Shown here: one piece after another, positions 26,907-64,000 of the stretch
Layout of the letters: each line of letters opens with the position of its first letter
Numbering within the stretch: the stretch's first letter is position 1
Source: Ascidiella aspersa
Lineage: Eukaryota
Reading direction: 5' to 3'
Assembly (NCBI GenBank): GCA_963924565.1
Contig: OZ004611.1
Location: 22,568,001 to 22,632,000, forward strand
DNA length: 64,000 bases
Position numbers and translations under genes: made by a program
Notes under the pieces: generated by a model
The model's input: the letters and a program-made list of their open reading frames with translations, nothing else
Databases searched by the model: none
What the model was told of the DNA's origin: nothing

Positions 26907-26916
26907 GCTTAGAGCC

Positions 26917-37284: not shown

Positions 37285-38949
37285 CTTTAACCAAGGGCAA
37301 AACCAGCTGACGAAGGAGATTTATCCCAGAATAATAACTCCTCGTAAACAGAATGTATTTTTTGTATATTGCGTTTACCTGCACAAGGCAATAACGCCCT
37401 GTCAGCAGAAACGTGTATCGCGTTTACCTGCACAAGGCAATAACGCCCTGTCAGCAGAAACGTGTTTATGCTTTAAATGTTCTAGGGCCTGGAAACCGCT
37501 ATATACGTTGAGACTTGGTCGTGTGCAAAGCGAACCACTTGCGTGATATTATTTGTCACATTTAAAACGAGTTGAGTATTCTGGTTTCTGGTAGCCTGCT
37601 TGTTGTTTTATTTTACTTCAGCCCAGTGGTTGTCAAAACATTTTTAGCTTGCATCACACTAAAAAAAGCTTATTATTCGCGGTGCACTTTTAACAAAACA
37701 ACAATATGGTAACTTTACAAATCGTTTCGCTACTAAATACATGATTAGTATTGATGCTTTTAGGAACGAAATATTGTTATCTTATAACATTCAAACATAC
37801 TGATTTTTGGTTTACCAAGTTCTGTACTTAGTTTGTTTTTACGTCGGGGAGAAAGCAGTATGTTTGATGTGCAATAAAAGTGTTGCCGTGTTTAAATAGT
37901 ACAACTTTAGCCGAAATTATGCGCCAAAACATGCAGGCTTTGGCAGTACCTAATCCGGCCCGCCAAGTACTTTATTTTGCCTTATCTGGCCCGCCGACCG
38001 GAAAAGTTGCCCGCCCCTGGTCTTGAGGTATCTGCCAAACGACATTCCTGTTATATTCTATTTATTGCCTTCTTGTCTTGTCTGCTTATATGCTCTGTAT
38101 CTACTGTCTTCGTAAAAACCAAAACTGACCTTCTCTGGTCTAATTTGCTTCCCCCAACTCGACCTTATGCGATGGAATAAACTATTTAAGCTAACAGTAC
38201 ACCCTGTAATCGGCAATATTCGTCATGATATGCCCTGCATAATGACTTAATACAAGATCTGAACACGCTGAACGCAACTGGAAACATCAATAAAACAACA
38301 TATGTACAAAAAACTTGTATTTTTTGGATTCAAGATCACAATAAAATACTTTTAACCAGGGCTGCGGAGTCGGTTAAAAATAACCCGAGTCCGACTCCGG
38401 TCAAATGAGCGATTTTGTCGAGTCCCGAGTCCGGCCTGCATTTCATCAATTTACGTAACTAGAATAACGTGGATATTCGGCAATCCACTTATAGGGGTGT
38501 CGTATAATTCATTCAAAATGCATGGTTGGAAAATATTCCACCAAATGCTATTTCGCCTTTACAATTTCCATTTGGCGGCCGTTTCAGTTTTAAAATTTGG
38601 TACTGCGCATGTGCATTTCGGACTCGGGACTCGGGTAGTTTTGCAACGTCTTACTCGAGTTCAGACTCCCGAGTCCGACTCCGGCAAAAACAAACCGACT
38701 CCTCGAGTCCCGAGTCTAAGCCCATCTTAATGGTGTGTAATTTGTAATCTTACTAATTGTATATCCTTATCTTTTTTTATTTTACTTTTTGTCTGACAAA
38801 AAGTTAGAATAGCCACGCAAGACTCTTAAATCAAGGAATATTTTAGTGCTAAGCAACAACCACTTGTGTGTTATTACTTTGCCACGTTTAAAACGAGTTG
38901 AGTATTCTATTTTCTAGTGGCCTGCTTGATGTTTTTTCTTACTTTAGCC

Positions 38950-39810
38950 CAGGGTTTTTCAACCGTGGCGCTCGGCCCCCCTGGGGGGCCACGGAGCGGT
39001 CATTGGGGGACCACGGGCAACTCTCTAGCTAGGTAGGTTTGCAAAACCAAACTGCCACCTTTTTCAATTTGCCAGTTGATAGCTGAATCCTTACTTAACG
39101 TTTTCTAACACTTGTTTCTGGCAGGTTCTTTGACTCATCAGTAAAGATGTTTAAAGTAGAATGTTGGATAATTTCTTTGTTCGTTTTATTGCGGAAAGTT
39201 ACGCCTAAGAGTACGCACGCGAGTGGCAAGTTTGAATAAAGGCCCGTCGCTGTGGCGAAACGATTACTGTGCTGCTTTATAAGCAGCCAAATAGTGCGGG
39301 GTCAGCGTTTCTTTGGACGCCCGAATACTTAAATCATCAAGTGTCTGTCAAAAGCTGCTAGGCGAGAAAATAATGTGCGTAATGTCGGGTGCAGAGATCT
39401 GGCAATTTCCTTAAAGTGCGTTAAGTTGTAACGCACAAAGTACGCTGCAGGGTTCAAAGTTAATTTTAGGCCCAAATTTAGTGGATTTTGCACAGCGTAT
39501 TTGTCAAGTAATAGTAATGCATTCACAAAACAAAAATCGGGCAATTATCTCGACAAATGTAGTCACATTTAACACAAAAAACCTTGGCGGAGTTTAAGAA
39601 CAAGCTTGTACTGACTAACTACGTTATAATTTAAATTAAAATGACTGATTTGTTAATTTGTTTAAAGCAAGTGCATTTATTCGTTGATTAATGGATTTGT
39701 TATTAACGTAAAGAAGTGAAACAAGTGAAAATAGTAAATTTTTGCAGGGGGGGCACCAGGATCGAGAGCCTTAAAAAGGGGCCACGAAGCAAAAAGTTTG
39801 AGAACCACTG
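38950..39810. mobile_element. hAT-type non-autonomous element (copy 2 within the 2.6-kb duplication)
   Basis: Same ends and TSD as 36405-37284. Confidence 0.75.
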
Positions 39811-42165: not shown

Positions 42166-43752
42166 CTTGCTTCCCCTCAACTCGACCTTCTGTGGTGAAA
42201 TAAACTATTCAAGCTAACTGTATACCCTGTAGTCGGCAATAAACGTTATGATTTGACCTACACAATCAGCTGGGCATTGTATACAATACTGCAAAAATAG
42301 TTACAAGAATGATTAGTCTAGCTTAGTTCAAACCAATATAGCCAATGGTAAAGCAAAACATATAGTCAGGGGCGGATTGAACAGGGCCACCTGACCATGC
42401 CACTCAAACTTTTTTTTTCGGTTGAAATCCTTTTAGCCCCACTGTTAACAAGATGCAAAAAAAGTAAACAGTTTACATCAACCCCTAAGGTCCAATTCCA
42501 GATCAAATAATTTAGTCAAGCTAAATTACTTGATAGATTCAACTCAAGTATTTTTACTCGAAAACCTACAACCTAAATTTATTTGAAAACAATTACTTCA
42601 CTGAAGTCCAGTGGCCTTCTATCATTATAACCCTTATATTAATTTATGCCACCAATGGGCGTGATATAAACCAGTATATTTGTTACACAAAGCTAATAAC
42701 AAAGTATATAATACATTGATTATTAGTTTTGCCAAATGCAGCTGGTTGTTTCTTTGTTTACGTCCGATATTTATTCAATGTAAGTTTGCATAGGGTATAT
42801 CCTCGAAACAGATGTTTTTATTTGATGCCTAATTTTTCATTCTATTTTTTTTAACTGTCTTTCTTTGATGGTATGTTGTGCCTTGTAAGAACGCAAAGCC
42901 GTAATTTATTGTTTTACGAAACACAGGCTTCAGATATATTTAGGGTAAACCCATTTGGTAACCTAATACACTTGCGTCTAATTGCCAACCATTGCATTTT
43001 TAGTAAAATCTGCCACTTAGAAGCCTTTTATCGATTCGGTCAACTGTAAAATCAATAACAATCAAAATGACGATGGCCGCAATTATTTTATTTGTGGGAA
43101 TTTTGATAATCTCCAACACCAAACGTAAAAGCCGGATTTTCACACCGAAGAAAGTACGTTTAAAACGGAAGGTGGACCAACAGAAGTGCGGAGAAGACAC
43201 GGCAGATTTACTGAAACAAGCGATATAGTTCACTGTACAAATCTATCAGCAACAAATGGTTATAAAACAAGAAGTTCTTTAGGCCTATAGATGTTATTTC
43301 ATTTGTTCAGCAATTAATTCGACAGGCACTGCATTTTCACGTGACAACAATAGGAGACATGCTTATTTTAGCGGAATATCATTGTCTCGCTTCAAGTAAG
43401 TGCTGTGTATGCTGCAATTAAGTAAGTGGTAATGGCATAAAACAGTAAAAGCGATAATACTCTTTTGGCAATCTTAAACGTGCAATCCTTTGTTAGCATA
43501 CCGAGATACGCTAAATGTACAACAGAAAAGCAGATATCGTAAAACTGAAAATTAACCGGCAAAAAATAACAATACATCAACACCGCACCAAGCTTTTTGG
43601 CCCTTTCATGACTAAAAAGAAAACACATGTCTACATAAGCAAAACTGGGTAAACTGTAATAGTGAAAAAAAAACTCTGTGCATTTTAACAAAGTGAGTAT
43701 TGGCTAGGTGACTAAAAGGTCGTTCAGGGTGACATTTACTGCGATCGAACGC

Positions 43753-46700
43753 TTAGACGGTTGGTTCGGTGTATGGTACAACCGACACTTGGTAGTCTGG
43801 GAATCGGTTCATCGACATGTCGATGACAAACTCTGCCTGGCCATTGCTGGACTGACGTTCAATGTCGTTTTGCGTAATGGTGTACTGGCTGCTGGACACC
43901 TTGGAAACGGAGCCGAACCAGACCTGCGAAAAGAGAAAAGGGTTTTATACCACGCTGCTTTCGTCGGACTACGTGAGTTATTGCTAATGCCAGATCGATT
44001 TGGCATAAATTAGATGGGCATTAAAATCGATTTTTCGACTCTTTTCTTGGTAAAGTTATTGTTTCGGGTTTTAGACGTTCCTTTGACAGGGGGTGCGATC
44101 ACAACTGAAGGCGAGTTGCTGTTAAAGAGCTATTTGGAGGAAAGCGTAAACAAAATACTCACATTGATGTTCTTGATTGCTTGTGGGAAGGTTACAGTGA
44201 CGGCATTGACACCAGTCGGGAAGTACAACTTTCCTTGTGCGCCGTTGGGCCAGGTTCGACTGAACACTACGAAGCCTTCAGAGCGAGCTGCAAGTAACAA
44301 GAAATGGTTTTAATTTTCTGCAAATCTTAAACTTGCAATTGAAAATTAGAAAAGCCCGACAAAGTGTTTGCCAACAATATATAGGTACGACCAGAGTGAT
44401 ATCGGTACAGACCCGATGAACCCGCATACATTTTTCTACAGTGATGAAACGCTTAGCCCAAGACCCAAAAGAGTTTTTAGCCCCAAATCGACGTTTTACT
44501 TTTTCAGCGGTTGTTTTTATCACTTCCCACCCTCACCAGAGCCGTTTAACAAATTTACAAAACAATCAAGTAATAAGGTCAATTAAAAGATGGGAGCATA
44601 ATGGTTGGAGGTTGGAATAAGACGTAATACGAATATCAAAGCCCACACATAAGTATATAAGTATCATTTTGAGGGTTTTGAATAACTCTTTATTCATTTT
44701 CATTTTTTTGCATTCAATTAAAAGACGAATTTGAACTCACGAATTTCGCAGATGGCCATCCTGCTGCTTGCGCACGAGCTGGTGTAGAGCATGTAGTCAA
44801 GGTAGCCGCAGTCTCCTGCTCCTGGCTGATCATCTGCCCAGCCGGCGGTGTAGGTGAAAGCGGAACCGTCGGAGTTGACGAAAACACCCTCCTCGGCGCG
44901 ATCGGTCAGACCTGGGGTGTGAAAAAGAGAAACGTGTCAGACCCAGTGATATTTTTTTCAATTATTGACGGATTACTTATAGTTAACTGTTGGACAAACT
45001 TTGCAAAATAGTTCTCGTTTTTTTTTGTCCGTTGATACCCGTTTTGGCGTTTTGTGGTTCGCTTTATTTGACCTTTTTTGCGACTGTTTTTGCATTTTTA
45101 TGACCACGAACGGCTATTCAGTTGTTACGTTCATAGGAAAGCGAACGCACATCCAAATACCTTAAACTCTAGTCGCCTTTACTTCAAAAATGCTTAACCA
45201 GCGAAGCTAATATGCCCGTCTTGGCGGCCATTACAAACTCGAAAACGCGAAACGCAGCCGAAGCGTGTTATCTCTCATTCTTACCGATCCATTTGTCGCC
45301 TCCGTAGTTGCGCGAGACGATCTTCCTGACTCCATCGTCTTGGACAATAACGAGACGGCCTCCGTTGACGCCACAAGCTCCTTCAGCCTCGTCGTAAGAG
45401 CTCGATTCGTTGGTGGCGCGCATGCAGCTGTGTCCGTACGCCATGTATCCGGCCATGCAGTCGGCAACTGAATAGAAAATAGCGGGATATGGTTAAGAGT
45501 TTAATGGCTACCTTTACTTTTGGTGCATCACTCGAACGCTTCGTTTTTAAGTCTTTTTTAGTTTCATCCCTTTTTTTAGTTTTTGTGCAGCTTTCGCCAT
45601 TTAGACAAATGTTAATAATTTTATTGCTTTCATAACCTTGGTGCGGCAAACTTTAAGTTGAATTAATTGATGTGGCTGCACTGAACTTTAGTAATAGGTT
45701 AACTGTTATCGCTGGTCAGTAAGACTAGACTCGGTTTAGATCGAATATGCATGCCTTATGTGTGTGATGACTGAGTCCAGCTTAGCAACCTGTGATTTGT
45801 TAAGGTAAAATCGAGAATGAATTGATACCAGGGAAAACCGTATAGGCAAGACTTCCAAAAATGGGAGGTACTTATCACTAACGCGTGTTTTGGCAGTTTG
45901 AATCTTACCGGCGGCTCTTGGCAGACAGGTGACGCTATCGACATCCATGTAGTGGTCTTCTGGGCATTCACAGAAGAAAGAGGACTCGATGTTCACGCAG
46001 CTGTGCGAGCATGGGCTGTTGTCACACTCGTTGGTGTCTGTTGCAAGGAAATAAATGACAATTTAAAACGGGTGTCGCGACTTTTGCTTGATTTGCTCGC
46101 GAACAAACGCCGTTTCTATGAGTCTATTTTCCTTTCAAGGAGTCTCGATGGAATTAAGAAGAAGGTAAGGAATTAAGAGGCAAGGCGGAAAACGTGTAGT
46201 TCATAAAGATTGCTTCTTACAGATTCGTGAAGATACTTTCATAAAGATTCTATAGCGTTTTACGAACGTTTGAGATATATTCTGTTGGGCAGTAAAATGT
46301 GATCCAAAACTGTTCAAATGCCATGCCAACCTAACAGTAAGCATACAACTAAATGAAGGATCCTTATATTTTATCGACGGCCACATGAATTTTTTAAACC
46401 CGGTTTTAGCTAGCGTAGGCTTACCGAAGCAGGTCATGTTGTCGGGTCCGAGAGTGTATCCGATTGAGCATTCGCAAATGAAGCCTTCCAAGGTGTCCAA
46501 GCAGATGTCGCTGCAGCCACCGTTGTTCATGGCACACTCGTCGACGGCTGCCTTGGTCACGTTGTTACCTGTGGAAGCAACAAAGGTCAAAACCGGCGAC
46601 AGGCAGGGTTAAATTAGTTCTACGAGTTTTTATCAAGCTCTGACATGCATATATACGGCCAACTGCAAGAGTGTGAAAACTGAGTCTTTGTATTCACTTA

Positions 46701-49700
46701 AGAACTGCTAATATGTAATCACTAAAAAGCCATGCACGCTTGTGCGCGACACAACTAATTTTATACCGCGGCTAACAGCTTTCGAAATATGTGTGAACGA
46801 TTAATCTGCCCGGGTTTCCAACGCTACATAACTGTCAGGCGAAAAACAAAAGCAAATAGAGCAAACGACTGGTGCCGTTTGCCTGAGACGAAAGACAAAA
46901 ATACGGATCCTTACGTGCAACGCAGTCCCTGGCGTTGACATCGAGCTGCATATCGTCTGGGCACTTGCAGTAGAAAGATCCCCGGGTGTTAACGCACTCG
47001 TGAGAGCATCCACCGTTGGCGACTGAGCACTCGTCTTGATCTGCGGGAGAAAAGCGGAAGAGGGTTAAAGTCAGTCGCGTGGAAAAGAGGGTGGAGCGAA
47101 AAGTGAAATTTTAGGTGAGAGGTGTGCGCCAGTTTCATTATATTTTAAATTGCGTTTACTCGACGCCTTGTGAGCAAGCGTGGTACAAACGTGTTAGATT
47201 TAGAAGCGCAACTATATAGTTTAATACAATCGATAGTGCACGCTTGTATAAACAATGGCAACGGCCACTGTGCTTACAATAGTCACAAAAAACACATTGC
47301 AAGGCTATGTGATTGGTGTGAAGGTCAGGGGTAATCAGCTACAAAAGAAATAGAGTGACTTCAGTTTAAAAATACGACGTGCGTGGGCTATGCGATGTGA
47401 AAAACACAGTACAAGGCTGTGTGATTGGGAAAAAAGGTAATCAGCTCCTAAGGAAAAACAGTTTATCGGTCCTTTTGGTGTACTCGTATAACTGGTAGAA
47501 GATTTCTCACCGTGGCACACAGCCTCCTGGATTTGGTTAAGCACGAGACCGCTGAGAGCGTCGAAGTTCTCGGCAATGAAGCGTCGGTTGTCGTTTCCGG
47601 CCAACTGATCCAAATCTACCTCGTTCAGTTTATCGCCAATACCGACAGCGAAAGTGACGGCGCCCATGGCACGAAGCTGTTCGCTGGCTGCCAGCACATC
47701 ATCCTGAGATGGAAAGCAGTAGGTTAAATACAAGCCTATTGTCAAGGAGTATGTTAGTTAGTAAGTAAAAAAGAGCTCTCGCGCCGACAACAGGGTAGAA
47801 CGTGACTCTTGATTCAAACTGGGAAAACAGTTACTGTTCGATACACTTATAATAATCAGTGCCTTTTCTCTAAAAAGGTCGAGTAGATCGTGTTCAATGA
47901 TTACCTGAAGACGATACAAGTTCGTATCGAAAGGTATTAACTGTAAATGAAGATCAACATGACTTCGATCTACTCGACGATTTTAGCTTTGCAATTCATT
48001 ATGAAGCTACCACTACGTATCCCTGCATAGTGTACCCAAGTTACTATTATTCACTGGCAAAAAAGCAGCGACCTTTGTTTTACCGCAACAAACCGGCATC
48101 GCCAATTTCTCAACCTGCCGGATGATTTATAGAGTAAATATTTTCGATATTTCGGCAATAAAAATTGGATTCGATCGTTAAGCGAAACTGGTGTAGCTGG
48201 TATAAACTGGTACAACCCATCAGAAGTTATTTGCGATTTAACCCTTCCGAAGTTTTTTTGAGAACTTCACCTTCTGAAATTTTTCTGGTCTAACTCTTTT
48301 AAATTTTTTTGTGATCTAAACCTTCCGAAGTTGAGGACTTTTAGAAACAGCTGTTTCTTGTTTCGGTGACGCACCTGGGATTTGCCGTCGGTGATGGTAA
48401 TAACGATCTTGGTGACACCGTCACGGGCTCCGTTGGCAGGCTTGAAGATGTTGTCGGCGACGTACTGGACGGCCTTGCCGGTTCGGGTTCCGCTGCCCAT
48501 GTAGGGCATCATGTCGACGGCGTCGATGACGTCAGAGCGGCTGTTGACCGAAGCGAAGTTGAAGCGAACATCGACGTCTCTGTTGTATCTGCGCTCGGCA
48601 GGGACAAGAAAAGTTTTTAATTTGTGAGGAAATTTGTGTATATTGCGGCTATCTTTTCAAGGTTCTACTGCACGTCTTTAAAACCGATCGTCAAATTCTT
48701 ACGAAACGATTTTTAAATTATTTGTATTGTATAATTTAGAAATCTTTCGTTTCAGAATGAAGCCCGGGTCGTCTATTGAAGTCGCACAACTCAAAGGCAT
48801 CTCCCGAACTGTTTCTATACCACGCTTCGCGTTCCTTTTAAAAAGCGTACCACACGTATTTTAATTTAATAATGGAATTGCAAAGCCAAAAAGGTCGAGT
48901 AGATCGACATCATCTTGATCTTCATTTACAGTTAATGTGAAACAAGCTCGTATCGAAACATAATCAATATGATGTCGATCTACTCGACCTTTCTGGCTTT
49001 GCAACTCATTATCAAACTACATTACATATCAGTGCATAGTGAACCTGGTGCATTTTACATAACCAACATAATAATGCGCGGATTTTCCAAGTTGCAGCAA
49101 CGGGATTCGTTTGAGCCGTCTTAAAACAACAACGTACCTGATGAGGGCGCTGTGTACTTTGTCCTGTCCGATGATGAAGGAGTTGAAGAGAGCGGATGTG
49201 AAGGACTTCATCTTCTGGAAGTTGTCGTACTTCACCGAGCTGGAGGAGTCGACGATCACGGCGAGATCGGCCTGCGAAGTCGGGTTGTTTAGAAAACACG
49301 AAAAACTTAGATATCGAGTGGAGGAAACAGTGCGTATACCATTTATAAATCACCACGATAGAGTATAACATTGTTATAGTAATTCACGGGCCGAAAAAAA
49401 GATAGAAGGTTTTAATAACAGTGACTGCGAATCTTCGAAGAAGACAAAGGGCCTTACAAGTTACAGTTATTCGTAGAACAGAACGTCTTTTTGAAAAGCT
49501 ATAGTTAATGGGCGATGGAAGCAGAAGGTTGTTGTACAAGCTACACAAGGTACATATATTCGATGAAGAAGAGAGAATGCCTAAGTGAACTACAGCAAGT
49601 CCGCGTTTACAAGTTATACAGTATGTTGGAATACAAATTTTAAAGCTGACTTCTCAAAATTTAAAGCTGAAGTTTTAGGCGAGTTTCAGGGTTGGGCATG

Positions 49701-52700
49701 TAACTTGCTTCCTTGGTGGCTGTATTGTTTATGATTGGCCAACTAAATCGCTCTATTTTGGACCAACGTTTCCGGTTGGGATGGTATAGTTATACAGAAT
49801 AAATGTATTTAAGGTGTGTCCTAATGCTGTGTTACCGACCCGTACAGCAGTTTAGCCCGGTGGGAAATTACAGCAAACTTACAGACTTAAGATGGCAAAT
49901 CTGAGCGGCGGCGCACGGCTTCTCGTTGGCATTGCAGGCGTGTCCTGTGCAGCAGCATCGGCACACGTCGTTCTCGCTTTCGCCATTGCACTGTGTCGGC
50001 ATCCAGGCTGTGCGTGGGTTCTGTAGGCGAAAATAGAAGGGATAAACAACGTTATAGTTTTGCTACTTTTTCCGTTGTTTGTATAGACAAACTTTTAACC
50101 GAGGGGCGTGCTTGGAAATTACTTGGCTGCAAAGTTTCTTTGCGTGTGTTTTTCTTGTTTTAATCTAAACTTCGTTCAAATTGTTTTCAGCCAGTCAGAT
50201 CAGAAGATTAAATATGCACAGTTTGTCTATAGGTTAAGTGTATTTTTATTAAAAAAACATTCTTATAGCCTCTTAATGACATAGCTTACTGTACGAAATG
50301 CGTTTTCAATTTTTTTTTTCAAATCCTGCTCTACAGCGGAAACCGCAGAAGCCACAGTTTGTCGGGCGAAAAAAAACTAGATTTCAAAACTCACCTGGAT
50401 GTAGTTGTTGTTGCAGGATTTGGTCTGTTTGCAGCGCTTGAAGATCAGCTTGCGACCTTCGTTCACGCGCACTTCGTTCTCGCAAGAGTCGGCGTCGGGG
50501 GCGCACACCTCAAGTGGCTGGGCGTTGCATTCCTCGTTGGTGGCAGCTCCCTCGCAGGAGTAGCAGGCACGTCCTGGAAAGGCAAGGCGTATAATGTTAA
50601 GTTGGGCGACAACCTCGTACATTATGACGTAGACAATGGCGATTGTTTGTATGGAACGTCCGAACAATGTCACTTGCTGTTTATTGATATTTCGCCCAAA
50701 TTTCGCGGAAAGCAAGCCCGCACTGGATATATAATTCAAGCAGTCCCCATCTATATCTTTAAAAGCGCTTGTTGTTATATTTATAAGTCCTGATTGTTCT
50801 GACGCCGTGCTTTTAGCCGTCAACAATATTAGTAAAACGAAAGTGTTTCATAGTAAATCTGTGTTATTCGAGTTACATTTTAATTTTGGGCCTAAACAAA
50901 ATACGGATCCCTGCGTAAAGGGAAAAAGTTGTAGGTTTAATTATACAGATTGTCGTTTTAGGGATATAAAGTTGGCGCCCATAAAGCAAATGGTGATATT
51001 TCGACTTTCTTCGATCGATAACCCACTATTCCCCGAAAAGTACACTTACCGCAGGTCTTCTTGTCGTCACGGAGTGCTTCGCCGTCGGGGCAGAGGCACA
51101 CGTAGCTTCCTTCGGTGTTGGTGCAGTTGTTCTGGCAGCCTCCGTTGTCGACCAGGCACTCGTTGATGTCGATGCAGCTTCCGTCGTCCAATGTCTCGAA
51201 GCCTGGCGGGCATGAGCATACTGCGCTGCCGTCCTGGCCCTCAGTACAGATGTGGCTGCAGCCACCGTTGTTTCCGTAACACGGGTCGGGTCGGCAAATG
51301 AGACCGTCGGCGTTAAGCAGGAATCCAACTGGGCAGGAGCACTCGTAGCCGGGTGTCAGGTTGGTGCAGTTGTCAGAGCATCCACCGTTGGCGGTCAGGC
51401 ACTCGTTAACGTCTGGGCAAAAGAAGCGAGCTTGTTAGTTTGCATTCTGAAACGTTTTAGTCTGTTGCAGGCAGGGCCGGATCATATTTTTTAGGGGCGC
51501 CCTGCAGCACTTAAGATTTTGGTGCCCTCTACATATGTGACCATTGTTAATCGGGGGCCTGTTGTGAAAAATGGTTCTCATGCCTACAAACATTTATAGA
51601 GAGGTTTAGGATTATACTTGAGAGAAAGAGAAAGAAGCGAGATTAGATTTAAACCGGGCCACTATTGAGGTCTGAGTCCATAGGCCAACTCGAATTACTT
51701 CATTAAACAATGATCGCAGCACGTTTGAAATACGGCCATGAAAATTTCTGCGGTGCCCCCTCTTCCTCGGTGTCCTAAATATGTGCTTATTCTACTTAAT
51801 GGTTAATCCAGCCGTGGCTGAATGACCGGGTTACATGCGATGTCCTGGGCATGTTTACTAAAGGCGATTTAAAACCTTGTTTTTTCTGAGTCTAGTGTTG
51901 GCTGGCAGTTGTTTACTTACCAATGCAGGCCTTGCCATCTGGGCCAATGATCGAACCTTCGTTGTGGCATCGGCATTCGAAGGACATAAGGGTGTTGACA
52001 CAAAGCTCAGCGCATCCGCCGTTGGCGTCCATGCACTCATCTGGGTCTGCAAGTCAAGCGCAAATCGGTTCAGTCGCTGGCATTGTGAAGCAATAAACGC
52101 CGGGGTTTAAATCAAAACAATAACGTTTGTAAACGAACCGGCGCGTTTTAAAAGCGAAAAACGTTTATATTCGACAGAGTTTTGCATGAAAAGTTAGATT
52201 CATAAAACAGTCCAATTCAAAATGATTTTCCGTTGCGTTTTTTTGAAACTTACCGCAAGTCAAACCGTCCTCGAGAAGAGAGTACATTGGTGGGCAGAAG
52301 CAGACGTAGCTTCCGATGGTGTTGGTGCAGTTGTGTGTGCAACCACCCTGGTCGATGTCAGCGCATTCATCGCTAAAAGAAATACGAATCAGTTAGCAAA
52401 AGTCGGGCCGCTTTAACAAGTATGTATAACAAAGCAAGGCGAAAGAAGGCAACCTACCGTTCGCAAATCATGCCGTCGATAAGCACGTAGTCAGCTGGCT
52501 CGGACGGGCACACGCACTCGTAGGATCCTGGCAGGTTAGCACAGATTGCTGGCGCAACGCAGCCGCCGTTGTTGATCAGGCACTCATCGATATCTGTGCA
52601 AAATCAAGGAGTTGGCGTTTTGTTTCATTAACCTTGTCGTAGCGTTTAGCGCCAAGAGATATCAAGTTTTTTAAACGCTTCGAAATGTAAGACGCAACTA

Positions 52701-55700
52701 TAAACGCAACTAATGTCGGACGCAAAGTTATTATGACGACAAAAGGCTCATTCGAATTGAAATATACTGACGACGTCTTTGCTGGCGCAATATGTATATA
52801 TATATATATTTTAACAAACCTAAATTACTAGCTTTACTAGAGTATTCTGCTATTACTGATGATGAATTAAGGTGGACATTTATTTTGCAAGGCTCAATTT
52901 GATTTCCACTATCACATATTCAGCGCTACTTACCGACACATGTGTCGAGATCCTCGGGTTCGCCGTCCCATGCAGCTGTGTTGTTCTGGAAGTTGTAGTT
53001 GCAGTTCAGCTGGGTGGGTGCGGCACCGTTTTGCGAGTAGGTGAATCCTGAAAAGGAAGGAACGACAGCCGTTGAGTAAGAGTCGCCGCGAGACTAGTTT
53101 TACATTAAACACAAAATATATAACTGCTACAGGTTCAAATGAATCTAAGAAGATCTCTTAAAGAGTGTTTTTAACTTTTAAGCCAAAGCCGATTGGCAGA
53201 AGGTAACATTGCGCTTTGTAAACTCAAAAAAAGGTTAATACAAAACGGCGTTACAGCGTTAGAGCCTTCGGGAGTCTAATTTAAATAACAAAATACAGGC
53301 TTTGAAGCATAATGGTTGGAGGTTGAAGTAAGACGTAATAAGAATACCAAAGCCCATACAGAAGTAGGTATCATTTTGAACGTTTCGAATAACCCTTTAT
53401 GCATTTTCAACATCAGATGTTAAACAAGGCAGAGTATGACATTACCTGTTGGGCAGGTTACGACAGCAACACCACCGGGGAAGACCTCTCCGTTGTCTTG
53501 GAGTCCACGGAATGAGACGTATTCCCTGGTGAAAGATTCGCAGCCTGGCACTGTTGTAAAAAAACATGAGTTTATTTTTTGGTATTGTGGGTTGATTTAT
53601 CAATGGAGCAAGTTACCAACAAACTTCTGCAGGGTTGTGTGATATGAGTAGCAGAAAATAAACAAGCCAGTTGTTTTTGTATATAATCTTAAGAGTAACT
53701 TCTTTTGTTTGGAGTAAATTTCAGCAATTTCCTGCCAGCGGCGAGGTGATGTATCTCGATATAGAAACTCGTTTCGCTCAAATACAAGTATTGTTTTACT
53801 TATCACTTCCTCCCTGTTGGAGGTAATAAGAAAATAGACTCACGAGTGAAGTTGTATGGGCAGAGCGCGGCATTGCAGAGCGACTCGAGGCAGCAGCATT
53901 CGCACTTGGAGTTCTCGAGGTTGGGGTTGCACTGGGACGGTCCCTCACCGGCGTCACGCGGGTTCTGAACAAAGTAAATAGGGCTATAGTTAGACGAATA
54001 GGTGGTTAGGTGGATTACATTGGTCAGTAATTATTGCCGAACGTTACAAGATAGACGGAGTAATGCCGGGAAGTAAGTTACTTGGAGGTATAGGATGCTT
54101 TCTTGTGCGTTACTGTACTGGTGATTTTATAGGTTAAACCGGGTATTGTCAATTTCTAAACAGTTATGCATGTTAAATAACGATCATTTATAGCCGTGGT
54201 TAGCAGAGAGCGTGATGTTTACCTGGATCATGTTGTTGATGCAAGCCTCGACCTGCTGGCAGCCCTTGGTGATCATGGTGATGTTGTTGCGGGTTCGCAT
54301 CGTGGTGAAACAAGCATCCTGGGACGGGGCACAGGCCTGAAAGGAGAAACCAATATAAGGATGTCGTGCAATTGAAAAAGGCTTGGTTCATTATACTTTG
54401 GCGAAATTAATTGATTGTTGATCCGTGTTACTAGTTTATATTGTGTGTTGTACTAAACTCACAACGCAATCCTGGCCTCTCCGAAGCCATCTTGTACCAT
54501 ATATAGGTGCCGTTACCGTTGACCAGGACGACTACAGAGGGGCTTGATCACAGATTACACATTGTGTATACGTACGATTCAGCTGTGCTAAGCTTTATAG
54601 CCTCATTTAGGATTTTCACAGTAATTGTGGATAACAGCTTTTTTGTCCGATTTAACTTACAACTGCCTCGTTGCACTCTTCGTTGGAAGGCAAGTTCTGG
54701 CAAGTGTAGCAGAGGATTCCGCAGGTGCGGCCGTCGGCGCGGAGCATCATACCGGCTGGGCACTCGCAAATGAAAGATCCTGGGGTGTTGGTGCAGGTGT
54801 GCTCGCAGCCGCCGTTGGAGAATTCGCACTCGTCGATTTCTGCGCGCCAAAACGAAATTTGAATGTCAACAACGATTCGGAGGCAACAGTGAAACTGTAA
54901 CGTTCGTTTCCGGTGTAAAGCGTTAAACTGGCGTGTTTAGGTATAAGACAACATCTCGTGTGAGAATAATGTCGATGATATTTTCTTTGCATAGTATAAA
55001 AAACACATATAAGTTTTCTACCATTGATGGAATACTACGTCCATGAAATTGTTAACTGTATAACGCCGTTAGAGATTGTTCGATCGTATAACATTGATAA
55101 CGTGTGACGAACAGTTTGCAATTTACATCCACGGAAAATAACCTTCTGGTAAAACAGCCTAGGCTAGCAGTCACTTACCGGTACAGTTGTGGGCATCTTC
55201 GTTAAGGGTGTATCCAGGCTCGCACGAGCATCGGTATGAACCGCCGGCCTCGTTGGTGCAGATCTGGGCGCATTGCATGGGGAACACTTGGTTGTAGCAG
55301 CTGTCGATCTCTGCACGAAAAAACAAGCACGTTTCAAAATCAGGTTTCATTTTTAGCAGTGTTAGACAAGTAGCAAGGTGTGGCTATTGGTAGTCAAAAA
55401 ACAGACTTTATATTTGTACTCTGTATCGCTTTTCATTCAGAGTTGATTTTGCGTCGATAAACAAAGTTATCACACGTTTTTTAAGGGTAGTTAAACACCT
55501 ATAACATAGGTGATACGCATGGAGGGGTGCACTGTTAAATCTGCTCAGTGAACTCACCGCATGTTTGCTTGTCGGCTCCGATGATCATACCCTCTGGGCA
55601 AGTGCACTCGTATCCTGGCTCGAGATTGACGCACGTGTGAGAGCAGCCGCCGTTCTCGTCAAGGCACTCGTCGTGGTCGAGGCACTCGTTTCCAGAGACC

Positions 55701-58700
55701 TGAGAAAGGCGTGGGTATGGGATTAGTCTTGGTAAAGGATGAGCCTATATTCGTGGTCATGTTCCGGTTGAAAAAATGTTACACGGGAAGATGGTGTTAC
55801 ACTATACAGGTGCCGTTATTTCAATGGTGGCTTTACGTTTTATTGCAATCGTCAGATGCCAGCACTTACAACTTGGTGGGATGGGCAGATGCAGCTGTAT
55901 CCTCCGAGCTTGTTAACGCATTTGAAAGCACAGCCTCCGTTGTCGACAGCGCACTCGTTCAAATCTGAAAGGTGGAACGGAATTGCTTTAGCATCCGGTA
56001 TGCGCAATGAAAGTCATCAAAGGTTATAACAAGGGTTCTTAAACTGGGGTCCATGGACCCCTTGGTGGATCCTTAAAATAGTTCAGACTTCATTTATATT
56101 TCACATTTTTCGGCCTGATATCAGCAGATTTACGAAGTCTGTGTACAATGTTACGACTATTTTTTACGTCATCTCTAAAGGTTTCTTGTCTGCTGTGGTT
56201 CATGCGAAGCAAAAAAAAACATTAAAGAATCCGCGGTAAAAAAAGTTTAAGAACTATAGTGGTTTCTTTTTGCAGGGGCCAGGAAAGTTCAACTGTGTCT
56301 TATTGCAGGGACCCGTTAAGTTTACTCACCGCAAGTGACACCATCCTCAACGATTGACATGTCTGGTGGGCAGGTGCAGTAGTAGGAGCCGACGGTGTTG
56401 GTGCAGTTGTGTGAGCAGCCTCCGTTGGCAACCGAGCATTCGTCGAAGTCGCAAGTGTGCTGGTCGGACTGCACAACAAAAAGACTTGGTTAGTTTTTTT
56501 ACTAGTTTGTGTTTGGCTGGTGTGCGGAGAAATCGTTTGACTTGTCCTATAGGCGGTACAAACCAGTCCAATTGTTTTCAAAGGTAAAGACGCAAATAAA
56601 AGTAGGAAGGAAAGCTTTTGTTCATTTTTTAGAAGCGTCCAACCCTGGTGAACATTAGAGCGAAAAATTTGGGGTAATTTTGCGACATGAAAAATAAACT
56701 CACGGTAAGGAACTGGGGCGGCTCTGGGTTGACGCAGAGCTTGTCGTTAAGCAAGGAGATGAGGCCGGCGTCGAGGTCGGAGAAGTTGTCGACCATGATG
56801 TAGTTGGCGGTCGATCCGGCAATCTGAAGAAGCTCGTGCTCATTGACACGCTTGGCTGTGGAGGAAAAAGTGTTTGTGAGATAATGCTTAGTCGGGGTCG
56901 GCTGCATTGTGTCTAACCGCTTTTAATTTGCCTGCAACTTTCTGTATAGTTTCTTAAAATGACGATTAGCTTTCCGCGGTGGGTTCATGTTGATTATTTC
57001 TAACCTGTTAAACGGTTACATCTGTAATCGCCAACAGTTGTTGAGCGAGCTATATCAAGTTATCGGTGATACATTTCTTCTAGGACAAGATGGTTCTTGG
57101 GTCAGTTTACAAATTCATAAATGTTTAGTTGGTTTTAAAACGTACCAGGATTTTTTTCCATAAGGCTTATTTAATATCGTGAAATATTATGACAAACGAT
57201 ATCAGTTTAAAAGACTTTTACCAAAAAGTATTATATTAAAAAGTGTTAGTACATTCCTGCATTGTGTCTAACCGATTTGAAATCAACCTGCATCTTTCTG
57301 TATAGTTTCTTAACACGACAATAAACTTTCCGTGGTTGGTTCAGTGCCCCCTGTTGATCAATTCTAACTTGCTAAATGGTTACCTCTGCGCGTTTAACCA
57401 CAACCTCCTTCAAGAGTCTTTACCCAAGCTTCCTACAGCGGTGTCAAACAGCAGTCTCAGCATCAACATTCTACTTACAGACACCAATGGCGTAGACAAT
57501 GTCGGCGGCCTCGTGAAGGCGCTTGGCAGCAGCGGGAAGATCACGCCAGTCGTACGAGCGTCCGTCAGTGATAACTACAACGGCCAGAGGCACTCCGGGA
57601 CGGCGACCGCGAGCTACGGTGAAGTCCTCGCTGACAGCGTTGTTGATGGCCAGGGCGGTCTTGGTACCCCTTCCCTTGTACACGATTGCCTGCGCAAGAA
57701 GGTGGTGGTTGGAGATTTTCAAACTCTGTTCATCGGTCGTGTTGAAGTGTGTTTTTTTACTGGCAGGCTTCGGCATTAAATCACTTAGTTTTGACTTAGC
57801 AAATTTTGGATATTTTTAGTTTCAAATTAGTTTGGAATCTTTATGAAAACAGCTGTAGTTATGGTTTTCTTAAAATGGTTCATTATTGGGTTCAGGTACC
57901 GGAGGGATTTTTTTATTTTAGCCACTTATTACTTACGTCCAAAAATTCATTGAACTGGGTCTGGTTGTGGACCTGGTTAAGGTTGAAACGCCTGTATGGG
58001 GCCTTGTTGTAGGTGATCAAACCGACCTGAAAACAGAATCAACCATAAGTAAAGTCAAATAAACAGAACTAGAAACGTGAAGGAAATGTCTTTCGAAAGA
58101 AGTTGTAAAGCAACTCGCGAGGAATTATCTCAACGAGAATTGAACAAAAACGTTAATATTTCAGGACAATATGTTCGGCCTTGTACTTTGTTCTATAACT
58201 AATGGCGGAAACAGAGTGCAGTAGCGTCTAAATGGGGTTACGGGGAAAATAAACAACTCAAAGAGCTAAACAATCTTTTTGTCAGTATACACTTATAATA
58301 ATCAGTGCCTTTTACTATTTTGAAAATGACTAAAAAGTTATGTGAAACGTTTAAAGTGATAGCTACTTCTCTATAGGCTTTCATATTCTTATTACGTCAA
58401 TTTTCGTTTTCACTTACGCGAACGGCGTCCTGTCCGACGTTAAGCTCGGCAACAGTGTTGGAGACGAAGTTGAGCATAAGGTCGAAGTTGTCCTGCTTGA
58501 TGGAGCTCGACTGGTCGAGGATAAAAAAGAGGTCTAGCTTCTGGTTGCCGCATGGGTTGTTGCCGGGGCAGGAGCAGAAGTAGGAGCCGTTGGTGTTGGT
58601 GCAGGTGTGCGAGCAGCCTCCGTTGTTGACAGCGCACTCATTGATGTCTAGAATAGAGGAAGAGAGGACGTTAACAAAGGGGTTAAGCGAAAGAGGGAGT

Positions 58701-61700
58701 TAAAGCGAATAAGCGTTAGGCGAAGAGGTGGCTGATGTACCAAGTTTTTATAATTTATTACTATAACTAACCGCTTAGTTGGAATGGCGTATTTAAAAAA
58801 AGTGTTTGTTTTTTTCTTACATTATCTAAAATAACAAAGTCTCTATTGTTTTGTTAAGAAGTTTGTTTTCATTGACTATTGGCGCTTTAGGCCATTTTAA
58901 CGCTTACTGCGCCAGTGGGGGCCTTGTTCGAAAAGCAAAAACCTGTAGGTTCTATTAATTAATAATAATAGCGTTGTCAATTACAAAGAATCCAAATTTT
59001 GTTTATCAGTTTGTTTTCATGGACTATTGGCGCTTTAGGCCATTTTAACGCTTACTAAGACAGTGGGGCGCCCCTTCTCGAAAAGCAAAAACCGGTAGGT
59101 ACTACTGAATAAAAATAATATATAGTGTTGTCAAGTCGGTGATTTATACCTCCGCATGTTCCGATATCTCCGAGCCAGTATCCATCAAAGGTTCGTGCGA
59201 CCTGGGAGCAGACGATCTGGTGGGAACCTCCGACTGGGCCGTAGCCAACTGGGCAGGTGAGGGTGCAGGTGTCTCCAAGCTGATGGACAAAAAACGATTA
59301 TTAGACTGGGTCAGAAAGAAAAGATGGGGCTTCTAGCAAATGCGACCGTTTTTGTGATGAACTCGATGTAATGTTGTAGAGTAAATTTGTAAACAGCAAA
59401 ACGGAATGTTTTTAAGGGTGTAGTAATTGGACGTGGAAGGAGTGTCAGACAAACAGAAAATTTTAAAGAATTGTTTTATAGGACAAACTCAAATATAAAG
59501 TCGACTGGCATTTTCTGCTCACCTCGTTGCCGTTGCAGGTCATGTTCATGCCGGCGGGAAGGTCGAGCAGAGACGGGTCTGGGCACTTGATGTTGATATC
59601 GTCGGCGATTGTGCAGTCTCCTGGCACGTTGCAGAGAGAGTCGTGGCAGCAGCAGCGGCACACGGAGCTTCCGTCAGGCTGAACGTTGCACTGAAAAGCA
59701 AATGTGGGGATGGTTAGACGTTGGTAGATTTGTTTGAGGTTTCGCACTTTGAGGTACAAAAGGCCTTGGGTGTTGCTAGATTCATTTGAGTGAGTTGCAA
59801 ACGGAATTTGCGCTCGCTTTGCAGCAGCATATTTGGAATCTACACGGTTTACACCCGATCGCTTAGTGTGGTATACCTGTTTATACTTAACTGATCAGTC
59901 TCAAAGTGGATTGAAGACTGAAATGACGGCTTTGCGGTCGAACGGCCAGTTGACTATAGAATCTATGCTATAGTCATTCACATGTGGCCCGGCAAGGCAG
60001 AGCTTTGTTAAAAAAAACGCTAAGCCGCTTAACGCGACCATGCGGCACTCGCCGCGAAATTACGTCACGGTGTGTCTGGCGCAAGCAAAAATCCAGGAGC
60101 GACGGGCGTTCCCGAATAATCCGGACGCGAATCGGACAATTATGCACTTGGATCGAGATCACAGCAACGCCTGACGCCGTCTTCTATATGCGTGGGCGTC
60201 GATGCCAGGTGAAATTTAATTGTTCCCGGCGCAGGTGCTACATTTCGAGTTTAAACAACAAGTTGTGAAAATTACCGCCGATCAGTGATAACAGTTCAAT
60301 TTTAGGGTTTTCCCTAGGCCTTGACTGTTAACCAAAATTGTGTGAGCTTTTTAGAAATTTTTTCTTGGAGATACTTTCTGGCTAACAAGCAATCGAAATC
60401 ACCAAAGTTAATGTTCAATGTGATGCTTAGAGAATTGTGCTGGGCCCATGATAACAACATTTCCTCTTAGACAATGTACACTGCCAACGTGCCAGGTATA
60501 GCTTGCGATATTTTGGGAAACCATTTAAAAATAGGTCGAAATAAAGCAAATCGCAAACAGCAGTGCGTCGAATAGGCACCGATCCTTGAGCAGACAAACT
60601 GAAATGCTCACCTGGGATGGAGACCAGGCGGTTCTCGGGTTCTGGATGAAGTTGTTGCCGCAGGCCTCGGTCTGCTTGCACATCTTAGAGATGTAGAGGA
60701 CTCCGTTTTCGCGACGGGTGGTGGTCTGGCAGGATTTCTGCGACGGGAAAGCAATCAGAGAGCGTTAAAAGCACGTCTATTTTTTTCGGTTTAGCGTGTT
60801 CTAACACGTCTATGATTAAAAATGTGAGTTATTTTGTGGACTAAAACAAGTTAAAATCCCAAACAACCAACATAAAAAAGAACTTGCCAATGTTTTCATT
60901 TCGGTCGAAAGATCATTAAAAAAATGCGTACCTGGTTGGGCGCGCATACGACGGCGTCCAGGCAGTCCTCGTTGCTGAGAGCGTTCGAGCAGGTGTAGCA
61001 CATCACGCCGCAGGTGTGTCCGTCGGCGCGGAGTCCGTAGCCTTCTGGGCACACGCACACGTAGCTTCCCATGGTGTTGTTGCAAGTCGACTCGCAGCCG
61101 CCGTTGTTCACCAGGCACTCGTTGATGTCTAAAAGAGCAAAAAAAAATAGTTTATATTGTTTTAGACGCGCCGCGAGTAGTTGTTGAGACCGCGCTATGG
61201 GAACCCACTTGTTTTCGATAAAGGGCGTTTTTTGGCGGTTAAACGGTTTCAGGTCTGATTTTAGTCATTTTATAGTGCCTTACTTTCAATATTGCCAGTA
61301 AACTTATTTATTTTTGATAGGCAGCTCGACTCGATGAGTGAACGGTCCTTTCGCTGTCATTGTGTTATTCTTTATGTGATTTTGCTTTTCAATGTTTGCA
61401 AAGTTGCACAAAAAATAAATTGCGTCTGAATCTTTGTCTGGCATTGAACTACATTTTTTACCAAGTTTTGTGCTGTTTTGGCCAAGTTTGTTAGATTGAT
61501 CGCATATTAGTTATTATACGTGTATCTTTGTTCGAGGTTTGCAATCATCGATGTTAAGGCCGCTACCTTATGTAATATCAGAAAAAGCTATAAAGCTTAC
61601 CAGCGCATGAAACGCCATCCTCCATGAGTTGGTAGCCGCTGTTGCATCGGCAGAAGAATTCGCCGTCGACAACGTTGATGCACTGCTGTTGGCAAGCGGT

Positions 61701-63638
61701 GTTTCCGTAGCAGCTGTCGTCGACTGAAGAGAAAAGAAAAAAAACGAATGGTGAATGTTGATCGGGCTTTAATTCTGTTCAAAATGCTGCTGCGAAGTTC
61801 GGATTTGAGTGGAATTTCGTCCAACAGTAAAAACTCACGGTGCTATGATAAGTTGAAAGCATACTACGAAAATAGTGGGAATTGTGTATGGTTTATTTAA
61901 AGCCCGTTATTTTTTATTCAGATACTTTTTAAAAGTTTTAGTCCCCACAAAACACATAATCTTATCCCTTTATACGCAAGCATGAAAGGGGACTTTGGCG
62001 ATTTAACACAGAGGACAATAACCTGGGGTTATGACTTATTCGTTCTGTGTTCCGTTTTCAGTAAAAAAAATGGTTTTAAGTAAATCTTTTGTTTTATACT
62101 ACAAAACTATGGATGTTATCACAACAATAAAGTTGACTTTTAGCGACCGGCATGATAACGTTTCCGATCCTGAAAATCGGACGTTAAATACCGTATGTCG
62201 AGAAATGTTTCAAAGAGGTCGAGAAACTTACTGCAGGTCTTGCCGTCTCCGGCGGTGATGCGGCCAGCTGGGCAGCTGCACTTGTAACTTCCGTCTGTGT
62301 TTTCGCAAAGGTCCGAGCAGCCGCCGTTGTTGTCCAAACACTCGTTGATGTCTGCGCGCAAAGAATTGTCAGGTCAGATTGGCGATTTTTTTTCATGTGT
62401 AATGGTTGCTTTGAAAACGCTGCCAAAGTCGGGGGTCGATAAGCAACTTACCGTTACAAGAAACGGTGTCGACAGCCAGGGTGTAGCCACGTCGGCATCC
62501 GCAGTGGTTGGATCCGACCAGGTTGAAGCAGTACTGGGCGCAGCCTCCGTTGTTTTCCAAGCACTCGTTAACGTCGCCAGAGGCTTCGCAGGTCTGCGAA
62601 CAGTTAAAGAAGCATTAACTATAGGGCGTTTGGCGTCGGAAATGTAGCTTTGCGCCCCTTAGACTACTAGTTTAGAAAAAATCGTGGTGAAACAAGTGAA
62701 AATTAACAGTGAGCTTGTTTAAAGATAATTTTTAACCTGGTGATAGTTTTGACTCCTTTTCAGGTGGTCTAACCACTCTCCAGCCCTTGAACAAGTAAAA
62801 ATATATCGATTTGTTGGGGGTGATTAAAATAAAATAACAAGCTTTTTTTCTAATTTAATATTTTTTAATAGACTAAAATTATTCCGTGCACGTTCCAGAT
62901 TAAAGGCTACTTCAAGTATAAGCTGTGCCCTTAGAGTAGCAAGCATTCAAGTCTATAAATCTTCAGAGTCAGAGCGAATTAAACGATTTACGAAACTATA
63001 CTATACGAAGTTAACACTGCGAAGGTAACACCGCTTTAGAATGCGCGTGCTTCTCGAAAGTTCGAAGGGGCTCACCTTGGAGACAATGGAGTCAACTTCA
63101 GCACGGAGTTCGGTGAAGTCGCTCACAACCACGACGTTGTCGGTAGTCGGCAGGGAAGCGATCTGGGCAAGTTCGCTCTCGTTGACTTTGGAACCGATGC
63201 CGATGGCGACGACGCGGGTTGCCTTGGCTGCCGACGGAAATGAGAAAAGTTAGAGTGGCACGTAAAAGCAGCATTACAACTAGATATAGATTCGGGAAAC
63301 CCCACTAATTTTTTTAGTGGGGCATCCGAAGTTTCTGGGTCGGGTACTGATTATTTTAGGGCAGATAAAAATTAACCTTCCGTGTGTTTGGGTAACAGTA
63401 GCAATTGAAGTTGCAAAGTGGCCACTTCTATTACAAGCCAAGAAATGGGAGGGAGCCTTTTACGTTGAGAAATCGTTCGTGAAAGCAAAAAATTGCTTCA
63501 AATCCTTTCATTTGCTTTTTTTCACTTACCCTTGACCAAGTTGGCGAACTTGGGCAGGTTTTCGATGTCTTGCGACCTTCCGTCGGTGAGCACGATCACA
63601 ACGGTAGGCACCTGTCCCTCCCTCCAGCCGTTGTATTT
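43753..63638 (-). CDS. Gene D (5' end beyond window): giant matrix protein, VWA-EGF4-LU-CCP-EGF[VWA]-EGF5-LU-CCP-EGF6-LU-VWA-EGF3-CTL-CBM2-like, >=1913 aa, 38 exons visible (matrilin/fibrillin-like modules)
   Basis: Exons high to low: 63638-63530, 63227-63076, 62593-62452, 62351-62232, 61723-61601, 61128-60932, 60737-60612, 59690-59523, 59279-59150, 58647-58418, 58026-57937, 57689-57479, 56855-56704, 56468-56330, 55964-55870, 55699-55558, 55310-55179, 54839-54661, 54336-54223, 53964-53844, 53550-53446, 53047-52934, 52593-52458, 52372-52254, 52046-51921, 51412-51050, 50573-50395, 50020-49883, 49271-49138, 48588-48375, 47703-47511, 47040-46915, 46568-46425, 46037-45909, 45467-45285, 44911-44741, 44287-44163, 43923-43753 (TAA). 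Total 5742 nt in one frame. Motifs: MIDAS DQSSS/DSSSS and TDG; cbEGF DINEC..NGGC; LU CYTC...CCC...CN. No TM at the C-terminus. Confidence 0.9.
44741..45467 (-). CDS. Gene D C-type lectin-fold domain (two exons)
   Basis: [63 protein letters not shown]; WIGL motif and Cys spacing of a CTL domain. Confidence 0.85.
47511..49271 (-). CDS. Gene D VWA domain 3 (three exons)
   Basis: [18 protein letters not shown] / [24 protein letters not shown] / DDV...FAVGIG..L..LAG..F..L; intact MIDAS. Confidence 0.9.
48871..49010. mobile_element. Palindromic (hairpin) MITE-like element; second copy ~47871-48000
   Basis: ~50-bp inverted arms AATGGAATTGCAAAGCCAAAAAGGTCGAGTAGATCGACATCAT / ATGATGTCGATCTACTCGACCTTTCTGGCTTTGCAACTCATT. 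Confidence 0.75.
51472..51816. mobile_element. Degenerate hAT-like MITE
   Basis: CAGGGCCGGAT ... AATCCAGCCGTG ends with GGGGCGCCC/GGTGCCCC subterminal motifs; TSD not clear. Confidence 0.5.
56031..56255. mobile_element. MITE copy of the 1078-1286 family
   Basis: Shares GGGTTCTTAAAC..GGGGTCCATGGACCCCTTGG..ATCCGCGGTAAAAAAAGTT with 1078-1286. Confidence 0.7.
56704..58647 (-). CDS. Gene D VWA domain 2, embedded in an EGF domain
   Basis: [70 protein letters not shown]. Confidence 0.88.
56905..57385. repeat. ~110-bp intronic direct repeat
   Basis: cattgtgtctaaccg..cctgca.ctttctgtatagtttcttaa at ~56905 and ~57260. Confidence 0.7.
58866..59135. repeat. ~143-bp intronic tandem duplication
   Basis: ttttcat.gactattggcgctttaggccattttaacgcttact.. 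at ~58866 and ~59013. Confidence 0.8.
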
Positions 63639-64000
63639 CTGCAGGCAAAGAAGCGAGCGGTAAGCTAAAGCAACGGCAAGGGCGCGTTAGGAAACGAGCT
63701 CAGGCTCGATCAGGTTAGGGAAAAACTGTTGGCGCGTTTCTGAACTGTTTTTTTCGAGTTGTTTAACCCCTTAGGCCTCTTTGTGCGTCTCAGAAATAAA
63801 GAGGAAAGGCTTATTTGTACGTTTTAAGGTGTCGGCGATTTGAAATATTTTTTCCCTCGTAAAAATGTCGTTTAAATACATTTGGAACAGAAACTTTAAC
63901 AGCTTTACGTATCCTTTGAAAAAAGCTCGGGTGCTTGTTCTTGAATGTAAACTATTCATCAAAAGCTAACTGGTGCAACAAAAATGTGTAAAAAAGTACG

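What the first reader, a model, noticed from the sequence alone, without database searches (positions are those of the whole stretch)
56330..58647. A complete VWA domain is inserted inside an EGF domain (between Cys5 and Cys6)
Seen: the spliced protein reads [32 protein letters not shown][[17 protein letters not shown]...NDKLC][21 protein letters not shown]. The EGF has five Cys before the VWA. Its typical tail (x-L-x-x-D-x-x-T-C, as in neighbours such as LRADGHTC) appears only after the VWA. Knowledge: VWA termini lie close together and are often clamped by a disulfide, which permits insertion as with integrin I domains; in matrilins VWA and EGF are simply tandem. Inference: a nested architecture in which the EGF C5-C6 bond closes a loop around the VWA, perhaps shielding it from force or presenting it laterally.
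Basis: partly seen in the sequence, partly recalled or inferred. Interest (0 to 1): 0.72.

Follow-up and report, generated by a model that had tools for sequence, protein, structure and literature searches.

The report
Adhesion domain nested inside EGF domain
In a large, likely secreted protein shared with sea squirts, the spliced message places a whole von Willebrand A adhesion domain in the middle of a small EGF domain, which is predicted to close around it so that the adhesion domain would stick out sideways from the protein rod.

Summary
Confirmed. Five GT-AG exons (58647-56330, minus strand) encode EGF Cys1-5, a 5-residue linker, Cys(a), a 184-residue VWA with intact MIDAS, Cys(b), a 15-residue EGF tail and Cys6. 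RNA reads support all four joints; no extra exon. The gene is the orthologue of a Ciona ~2050-aa EGF/VWA/three-finger/C-lectin protein. The same nesting is in 14 long proteins of this family and in no protein outside it among 286 scanned. Two natural controls support the pairing Cys(a)-Cys(b) and Cys5-Cys6: divergent members lose both clamp cysteines together but keep Cys5 and Cys6; and the matching EGF of the protein's second internal repeat is intact here but carries a VWA in the same loop in four divergent members. An AlphaFold model is confident and shows a hairpin in the tail, but the disulfide itself could not be measured. Force shielding is a weak rationale, since the VWA's own clamp already bypasses load. 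Concept precedent: laminin L4 inside LE domains. No description of VWA inside EGF was found in ten literature searches. Verdict: real, conserved, new variant of a known kind.

The parts
58418..58647 (-). Exon 1 of the module: calcium-binding-type EGF N-half (Cys1-Cys5; Cys5 codon 58570-58568), linker, VWA clamp Cys(a) (58552-58550), start of the VWA with the DxSxS motif
   Evidence: Pfam FXa_inhibition-type EGF profile positions 1-24 of 36, then VWA 1-39
57937..58026 (-). Exon 2: VWA core (30 aa, phase 0-0)
57479..57689 (-). Exon 3: VWA core with the MIDAS threonine and the TDG aspartate
56704..56855 (-). Exon 4: end of the VWA, clamp Cys(b) (56736-56734), first part of the EGF tail
   Evidence: single match in the genome
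56330..56468 (-). Exon 5: last six residues of the split EGF with Cys6 (56453-56451), then a complete EGF
52457..52594 (-). Intact EGF at the matching place in internal repeat 2 (Cys5-Cys6 spacing 14); carries a VWA in the same loop in four divergent homologues
59144..60737 (-). Three-finger (LU)-like and sushi-like exons that precede the split EGF and define repeat 1 (approximate bounds)
43756..64000 (-). Host gene (continues beyond the window end): VWA, EGFs, three LU-like domains, nested VWA, third VWA, EGFs, C-type-lectin-like domain, C-terminal domain; collinear with homologue P0164

Best explanation
The spliced gene encodes a complete VWA domain between the fifth and sixth cysteines of a calcium-binding-type EGF domain; the VWA is likely closed by its own Cys33-Cys218 clamp and the EGF likely by a long-range Cys27-Cys234 bond, so that the VWA would project sideways from an unbroken EGF rod. 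Shown: exon joints, cysteine order, EGF-type tail, intact MIDAS residues, conservation. Inferred: the VWA folds on its own and brings its ends together; the short arms (5 residues before Cys33, about 5 after Cys218) return the tail to the EGF half, where it forms the minor hairpin and packs on the next EGF. Load along the rod would pass through Cys5-Cys6 and not through the VWA, whose metal site lies on the face opposite its ends and would point away from the rod. Most likely role: a side-mounted, metal-dependent binding site that cross-links or captures ligands in a tunicate extracellular matrix or mucus; tissue and ligand are untested.
For: RNA joints 4 of 4. Nested pattern with all eight cysteines in 14 long family proteins, 29-64% identical to this module where measured. 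Cys5-Cys6 spacing is 10-18 in 183 of 183 intact family EGFs and 7 or less in 1 of 1806 EGFs outside the family, against 5 for Cys27-Cys33. A cysteine 5-7 residues before the DLxF motif is present in 27 of 28 family VWAs listed, nested or not; the 28th is cut at the protein start. P0189 and P0193 lack both clamp cysteines at repeat 1 and keep Cys5 and Cys6 (2 of 446 VWAs scanned); N-terminal fragments P0174 and P0175 likewise end that VWA without Cys(b) and with a textbook EGF tail. Repeat-2 EGF is intact in 12 proteins and nested in 4, with the same flanks. With the VWA cut out in a script, half plus tail scores 59.0 bits over all 40 positions of an HMM from 400 non-family EGFs, against 48.6 for reading on into the VWA and 52.6 for one shuffled tail; 15 of 17 modules beat each control. 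AlphaFold2 of homologue P0164: mean pLDDT 87.1, pTM 0.71, strands 226-228 and 235-237 in the tail; the clampless module folds at 81.4 and 0.77. The VWA part superposes on collagen VI, integrin I, PTMP1 and VWF A domains at Z 25-29, model 31-222 on VWF A1 1269-1462; cysteines 33 and 219 align with PTMP1 terminal cysteines.
Against: No coordinates were returned, so no disulfide distance was read from a model, and the model is of a 64% identical homologue, not of this protein. pLDDT drops to 67 over residues 221-230 and below 50 at 220-222 in the clampless model. Repeat-2 tails of P0174 and P0175 score -15.7 and -9.0 on the tail profile; the clampless modules do not gain in the excision test (44.0 and 43.0 against 50.9 and 49.1) and hold one unpaired cysteine inside the VWA. 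The glycine at -10 of ordinary tails is missing here. No experiment or paper gives the tissue or ligand.
Confidence: 0.87

Rival explanations
1. Tandem arrangement: the EGF closes early with Cys27-Cys33, and Cys218-Cys234 form a separate loop after an unclamped VWA.
For: The cysteine count is even either way; no bond was measured; reading on into the linker scores slightly above the half alone in several homologues (means 40.8 against 39.2 bits).
Against: Spacing of 5 is not seen in 183 family or 1806 other EGFs; Cys33 and Cys218 sit at the clamp positions of the non-nested VWAs and matrilins; Cys(a) and Cys(b) are lost together in P0189/P0193, which would leave both Cys5 and Cys6 unpaired under this reading.
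Confidence: 0.05
2. Nested in sequence and bonded Cys5-Cys6, but the split EGF no longer packs rigidly on the next EGF and acts as a hinge or a protease-sensitive joint.
For: Lower pLDDT at the tail entry; loss of the -10 glycine; divergent tails in repeat 2.
Against: The L-x-x-D-x-x-T-C tail and the calcium-binding residues of the next EGF are kept; pTM 0.71-0.77 for the three-domain models.
Confidence: 0.07
3. Gene-model artefact: hidden exons complete two separate EGFs, or the VWA is spliced out of the real message.
For: Database models of C. savignyi (H2Y973, P0001) and C. intestinalis (F6VDQ2, P0187) show an EGF without the VWA at this place.
Against: Those models also drop the LU domains; another C. 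savignyi model (H2Y970, P0068) has the VWA after Cys5; the EGF half and VWA start share one exon here; RNA shows only the four joints; 12 of 12 further C. intestinalis-cluster proteins over 2000 aa, nine of them from Logan contigs, have the nested form.
Confidence: 0.01

Closest known systems
Laminin L4 domain inserted in an LE domain (also perlecan domain III, recalled)
   Same: A globular domain of about 200 residues sits inside a disulfide-rich EGF-like module of a rod; for the related LF insert the LE array stays regular (PMC5338690, passages read).
   Different: Host is an 8-cysteine LE domain and the site is between Cys3 and Cys4, which are not bonded to each other; the insert is a beta-sandwich. 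Here the host is a 6-cysteine calcium-binding EGF, the site is inside the Cys5-Cys6 loop, and the insert is a VWA.
Matrilins (matrilin-2, -4)
   Same: VWA with terminal cysteines plus the same EGF type; nearest clusters by language-model features (0.91-0.93).
   Different: VWA and EGF are tandem: the EGF is complete before the VWA and a new EGF starts right after the clamp cysteine. No coiled coil here; LU-like, sushi-like and lectin-like domains present.
Inserted VWA domains: integrin alpha I domain in the beta-propeller, pilus adhesins RrgA/SpaC, ITIH1, alpha2delta/Cachd1
   Same: VWA presented as an insert because its ends are adjacent (insert status recalled; structures listed).
   Different: Hosts are propellers, Ig-like or Cache folds, not a 40-residue disulfide module; the integrin I domain is regulated by pull on its last helix, which a clamped insert would prevent (inference).
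Ciona intestinalis XP_026693866-8, XP_002123195 (automatic names fibrillin-3, fibrillin-2, mua-3)
   Same: Orthologue; same domain order and the same nested module at 58% identity.
   Different: The names are automatic labels; no functional study was found. Longer isoforms add a further N-terminal VWA.

Membership tests
VWA domain (PF00092) | Rossmann-like VWA fold over about 180 residues | tested here: met
   Pfam VWA on exon 1 and on the orthologue; homologue model matches collagen VI N5 at Z 29.0, rmsd 1.8, 184 aligned
VWA domain (PF00092) | MIDAS residues DxSxS...T...D | tested here: met
   All five present in the window protein; partly lost in divergent members such as P0176
VWA domain (PF00092) | Metal-dependent ligand binding | not testable with these tools
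   needs binding assays
Calcium-binding EGF domain (PF07645/PF14670) | Six cysteines in EGF order with D/N-x-D/N-E before Cys1, N at Cys3+2 and an aromatic at Cys4-2 | tested here: met
   Sequence; half plus tail covers the EGF HMM 1-40 at 59.0 bits once the VWA is cut out
Calcium-binding EGF domain (PF07645/PF14670) | Disulfides 1-3, 2-4, 5-6 | tested here: inconclusive
   Supported by paired cysteine loss and spacing; no distance available from the models
Matrilin | Tandem VWA-EGF(n)-VWA order with complete EGFs | tested here: not met
   Nested middle VWA and extra domain types
Matrilin | C-terminal coiled coil (PF10393) | tested here: not met
   Not among the 8 Pfam families of the orthologue; present in the matrilins listed
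Fibrillin | TB (8-cysteine) domains among EGFs | tested here: not met
   No TB family among the Pfam hits of P0163 or P0189 at E 0.01
Laminin LE with L4 insert | 8-cysteine LE host, insert between Cys3 and Cys4 | tested here: not met
   6-cysteine host, insert after Cys5; it works like this system without being a member

The most novel reading that the evidence does not exclude
The Cys5-Cys6 loop of the post-sushi EGF in this tunicate family is a reusable socket for a whole VWA domain: filled in repeat 1 throughout the family, filled in repeat 2 in one divergent branch and empty there in the others, and able to replace the VWA's own clamp disulfide. This would be the first described VWA-in-EGF nesting and a natural design for hanging a large binding domain sideways on an EGF rod, hidden so far because gene models splice the VWA out.
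Probability: 0.6. Interest if true: 0.68.

Novelty: new variant of a known kind. Interest (0 to 1): 0.58.

Why it matters
EGF domains are treated as small indivisible modules that are shuffled whole. This family shows a standard 6-cysteine EGF tolerating a 190-residue insert in its last loop across proteins only about 30% identical, with natural with/without and clamp/no-clamp variants that make the folding question directly testable. It gives a template for grafting domains sideways on EGF rods, and it warns that homology-based gene models can delete such inserts (two database models do). It does not reveal a new biochemical activity.

Tried and rejected
A two-chain prediction of the EGF half against the tail was not available, so no verdict exists from it. 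Fold searches were filled by the VWA and did not test the EGF part. Model coordinates were not in the script box. The run search listed no indexed RNA holder; raw reads X5 were laid instead. The tree of 52 VWAs groups the clampless VWAs with repeat-1 nested VWAs at only 84/84 and leaves the repeat-2 nested VWAs (98/92 as a group) unplaced, so one versus two insertions, or insertion versus loss, is not decided. Two 'N-only' hits in a Nematostella protein (P0188) were rejected: complete EGFs with 8-residue spacing. Other VWA hits in the own genome (L013-L016) showed no nesting in the 10-kb stretches read; genome searches found no second copy of the module (lower bounds). Exon shuffling at the insert borders is not supported: no intron lies at the 5' border and the 3' intron lies inside the tail. 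Force shielding as the main purpose was rejected on reasoning only. Two papers (PTMP1 structure; Whittaker and Hynes review) were not held, so nothing from them is used. Earlier findings: none returned.

Full report
Observation. The finding lies in a minus-strand gene with GC-rich exons and AT-rich introns. Five exons (58647-58418, 58026-57937, 57689-57479, 56855-56704, 56468-56330) have GT..AG ends and splice to an open 274-residue frame with cysteines at 5, 12, 16, 25, 27, 33, 218, 234 and then a complete EGF. The EGF half and the VWA start lie in one exon. RNA run X5, of which about 6% was read, shows the four joints with 13, 8, 10 and 10 reads; contigs of run X3 show the same joints; no extra exon appears.

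Host gene. Collinear matches to homologue P0164 run from just beyond the window end to about 43756: VWA, EGFs, a three-finger (LU)-like and a sushi-like domain, the split EGF, EGFs, a second LU/sushi unit, EGFs, a third LU, a third VWA, EGFs, a C-type-lectin-like domain and a C-terminal domain (the LU, sushi and lectin labels come from motif recall, with only a weak Pfam three-finger hit in P0189). The named orthologue is Ciona intestinalis XP_026693868 (58% identical over the module); its N-terminus looks like a signal peptide (by eye); I did not locate that exon in this genome. The organism is therefore most likely a tunicate (inference).

Conservation. Among 286 proteins collected by four searches (the last listed 120 of 1005 hits), 448 VWA domains in 90 proteins were examined; 14 show EGF Cys1-5, short linker, Cys, VWA, Cys, tail, Cys, next EGF; three truncated family records show the N-side only; two hits in a Nematostella protein are false. 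All true cases belong to this family; the named ones are Ciona, the others unnamed Logan, JGI, ENA and MERC records. Matrilins in the set are tandem. The scan is small and does not prove a tunicate limit.

Which cysteine pairs with which. (i) Spacing: Cys5-Cys6 is 10-18 in 183 intact family EGFs and 7 or less in 1 of 1806 others; Cys27-Cys33 is 5. (ii) Tail: the ten residues before Cys234 score like an ordinary EGF tail (13.3 against mean 13.2; null mean -16.2, maximum 20.3 because the null holds EGFs that my pattern missed); 10 of 12 homologue tails score above 5, while P0174 and P0175 score negative. (iii) Excision in a script: 59.0 bits over the full independent EGF HMM against 48.6 and 52.6; 15 of 17 modules beat each control. 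(iv) Clamp position: non-nested VWAs of the family and matrilins have cysteines at the same places as Cys33 and Cys218; these align with PTMP1 terminal cysteines, and the model range matches VWF A1 1269-1462 and A3 921-1110, whose long disulfides lie at these ends (recalled). (v) Paired loss: P0189 and P0193 have no Cys(a) and no Cys(b) at repeat 1 yet keep Cys5 and Cys6, and P0174 and P0175 begin with the same clampless end. (vi) With and without: the EGF after LU/sushi 2 is intact in the window (52594-52457) and in 12 homologues, and carries a VWA in the same loop in P0174, P0175, P0189 and P0193.

Models. AlphaFold2 on P0164 residues of the module with 14 sequences gave pLDDT 87.1 and pTM 0.71, a standard VWA and two short strands in the tail; the clampless module gave 81.4 and 0.77. 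Coordinates were not returned, fold searches tested only residues 31-223, and the two-chain test was not available, so the Cys5-Cys6 bond remains inferred.

Mechanism. The VWA likely folds first and joins its ends; the clamp forms; the tail returns to finish the EGF and to pack on the next EGF, keeping the calcium-stiffened rod continuous. The MIDAS is complete and, from the known VWA geometry, would face away from the rod. Load would pass through Cys5-Cys6. Because a clamped tandem VWA is bypassed too, shielding is not the gain; an uninterrupted rod with a side-mounted binding site is. In clampless members the host bond would take over the clamp's job. A matrix or mucus cross-linking role is a guess from domain content and from the many full-length transcript-like records; no tissue data were found.

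Why it was missed. Two database models remove the VWA and present a normal EGF (P0001, P0187), while another C. savignyi model and the RefSeq and Logan proteins keep it.

Known systems. [quoted passage not shown] VWA inserts in other folds are well known (recalled). Ten full-text searches found no description of a VWA inside an EGF domain or of this gene; of the listed papers I read passages of PMC3390340 and PMC6109156, neither of which mentions it in those passages, and saw only listings of the rest. The library lacks most subscription papers.

Origin. A tree of 52 VWAs does not decide between two insertions and one ancestral insertion with loss from repeat 2. Intron positions give no sign of exon shuffling at the borders.

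Verdict. Real and conserved; nested topology about 0.87; new variant of a known kind; interest 0.58.

Noticed in passing
window 26455-33471 (minus strand): A second, partial copy of the gene's 3' end (lectin-like exons and last exon), 70-93% identical by stretch to 43601-45742, with a reverse-transcriptase/RNase H-like open frame at 28602-29489 (+) lying inside it (family label recalled).
   Followed up: partly
window 36042-36484 and 38593-39029: Two near-identical stretches, seen as repeated translations.
   Followed up: no
window 3505-21016 (+): Exons of another extracellular gene with CUB-like, EGF and sushi-like motifs (labels by eye).
   Followed up: no
window about 56033-56065, 58337-58398 and 61339-61404: Short high-copy repeats in introns: very high contig depth and many loose ends, also in RNA reads of both strands.
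   Followed up: no
window 61129-60932 and 54840-54660 (minus strand): Three-finger (LU)-like domains begin directly after an EGF within the same exon; the family repeats a LU-sushi-EGF unit. Pfam barely detects these domains.
   Followed up: partly
P0288, P0291 (Ciona isoforms X1, X2): An extra N-terminal VWA of 211 residues and a Pro/Thr-rich insert of 37 residues differ between isoforms.
   Followed up: no
L014 (G000:C2:13987001-13997000): Two near-identical VWA genes or exon sets in inverted orientation (about 131-1255 on + and 4969-4035 on -).
   Followed up: no
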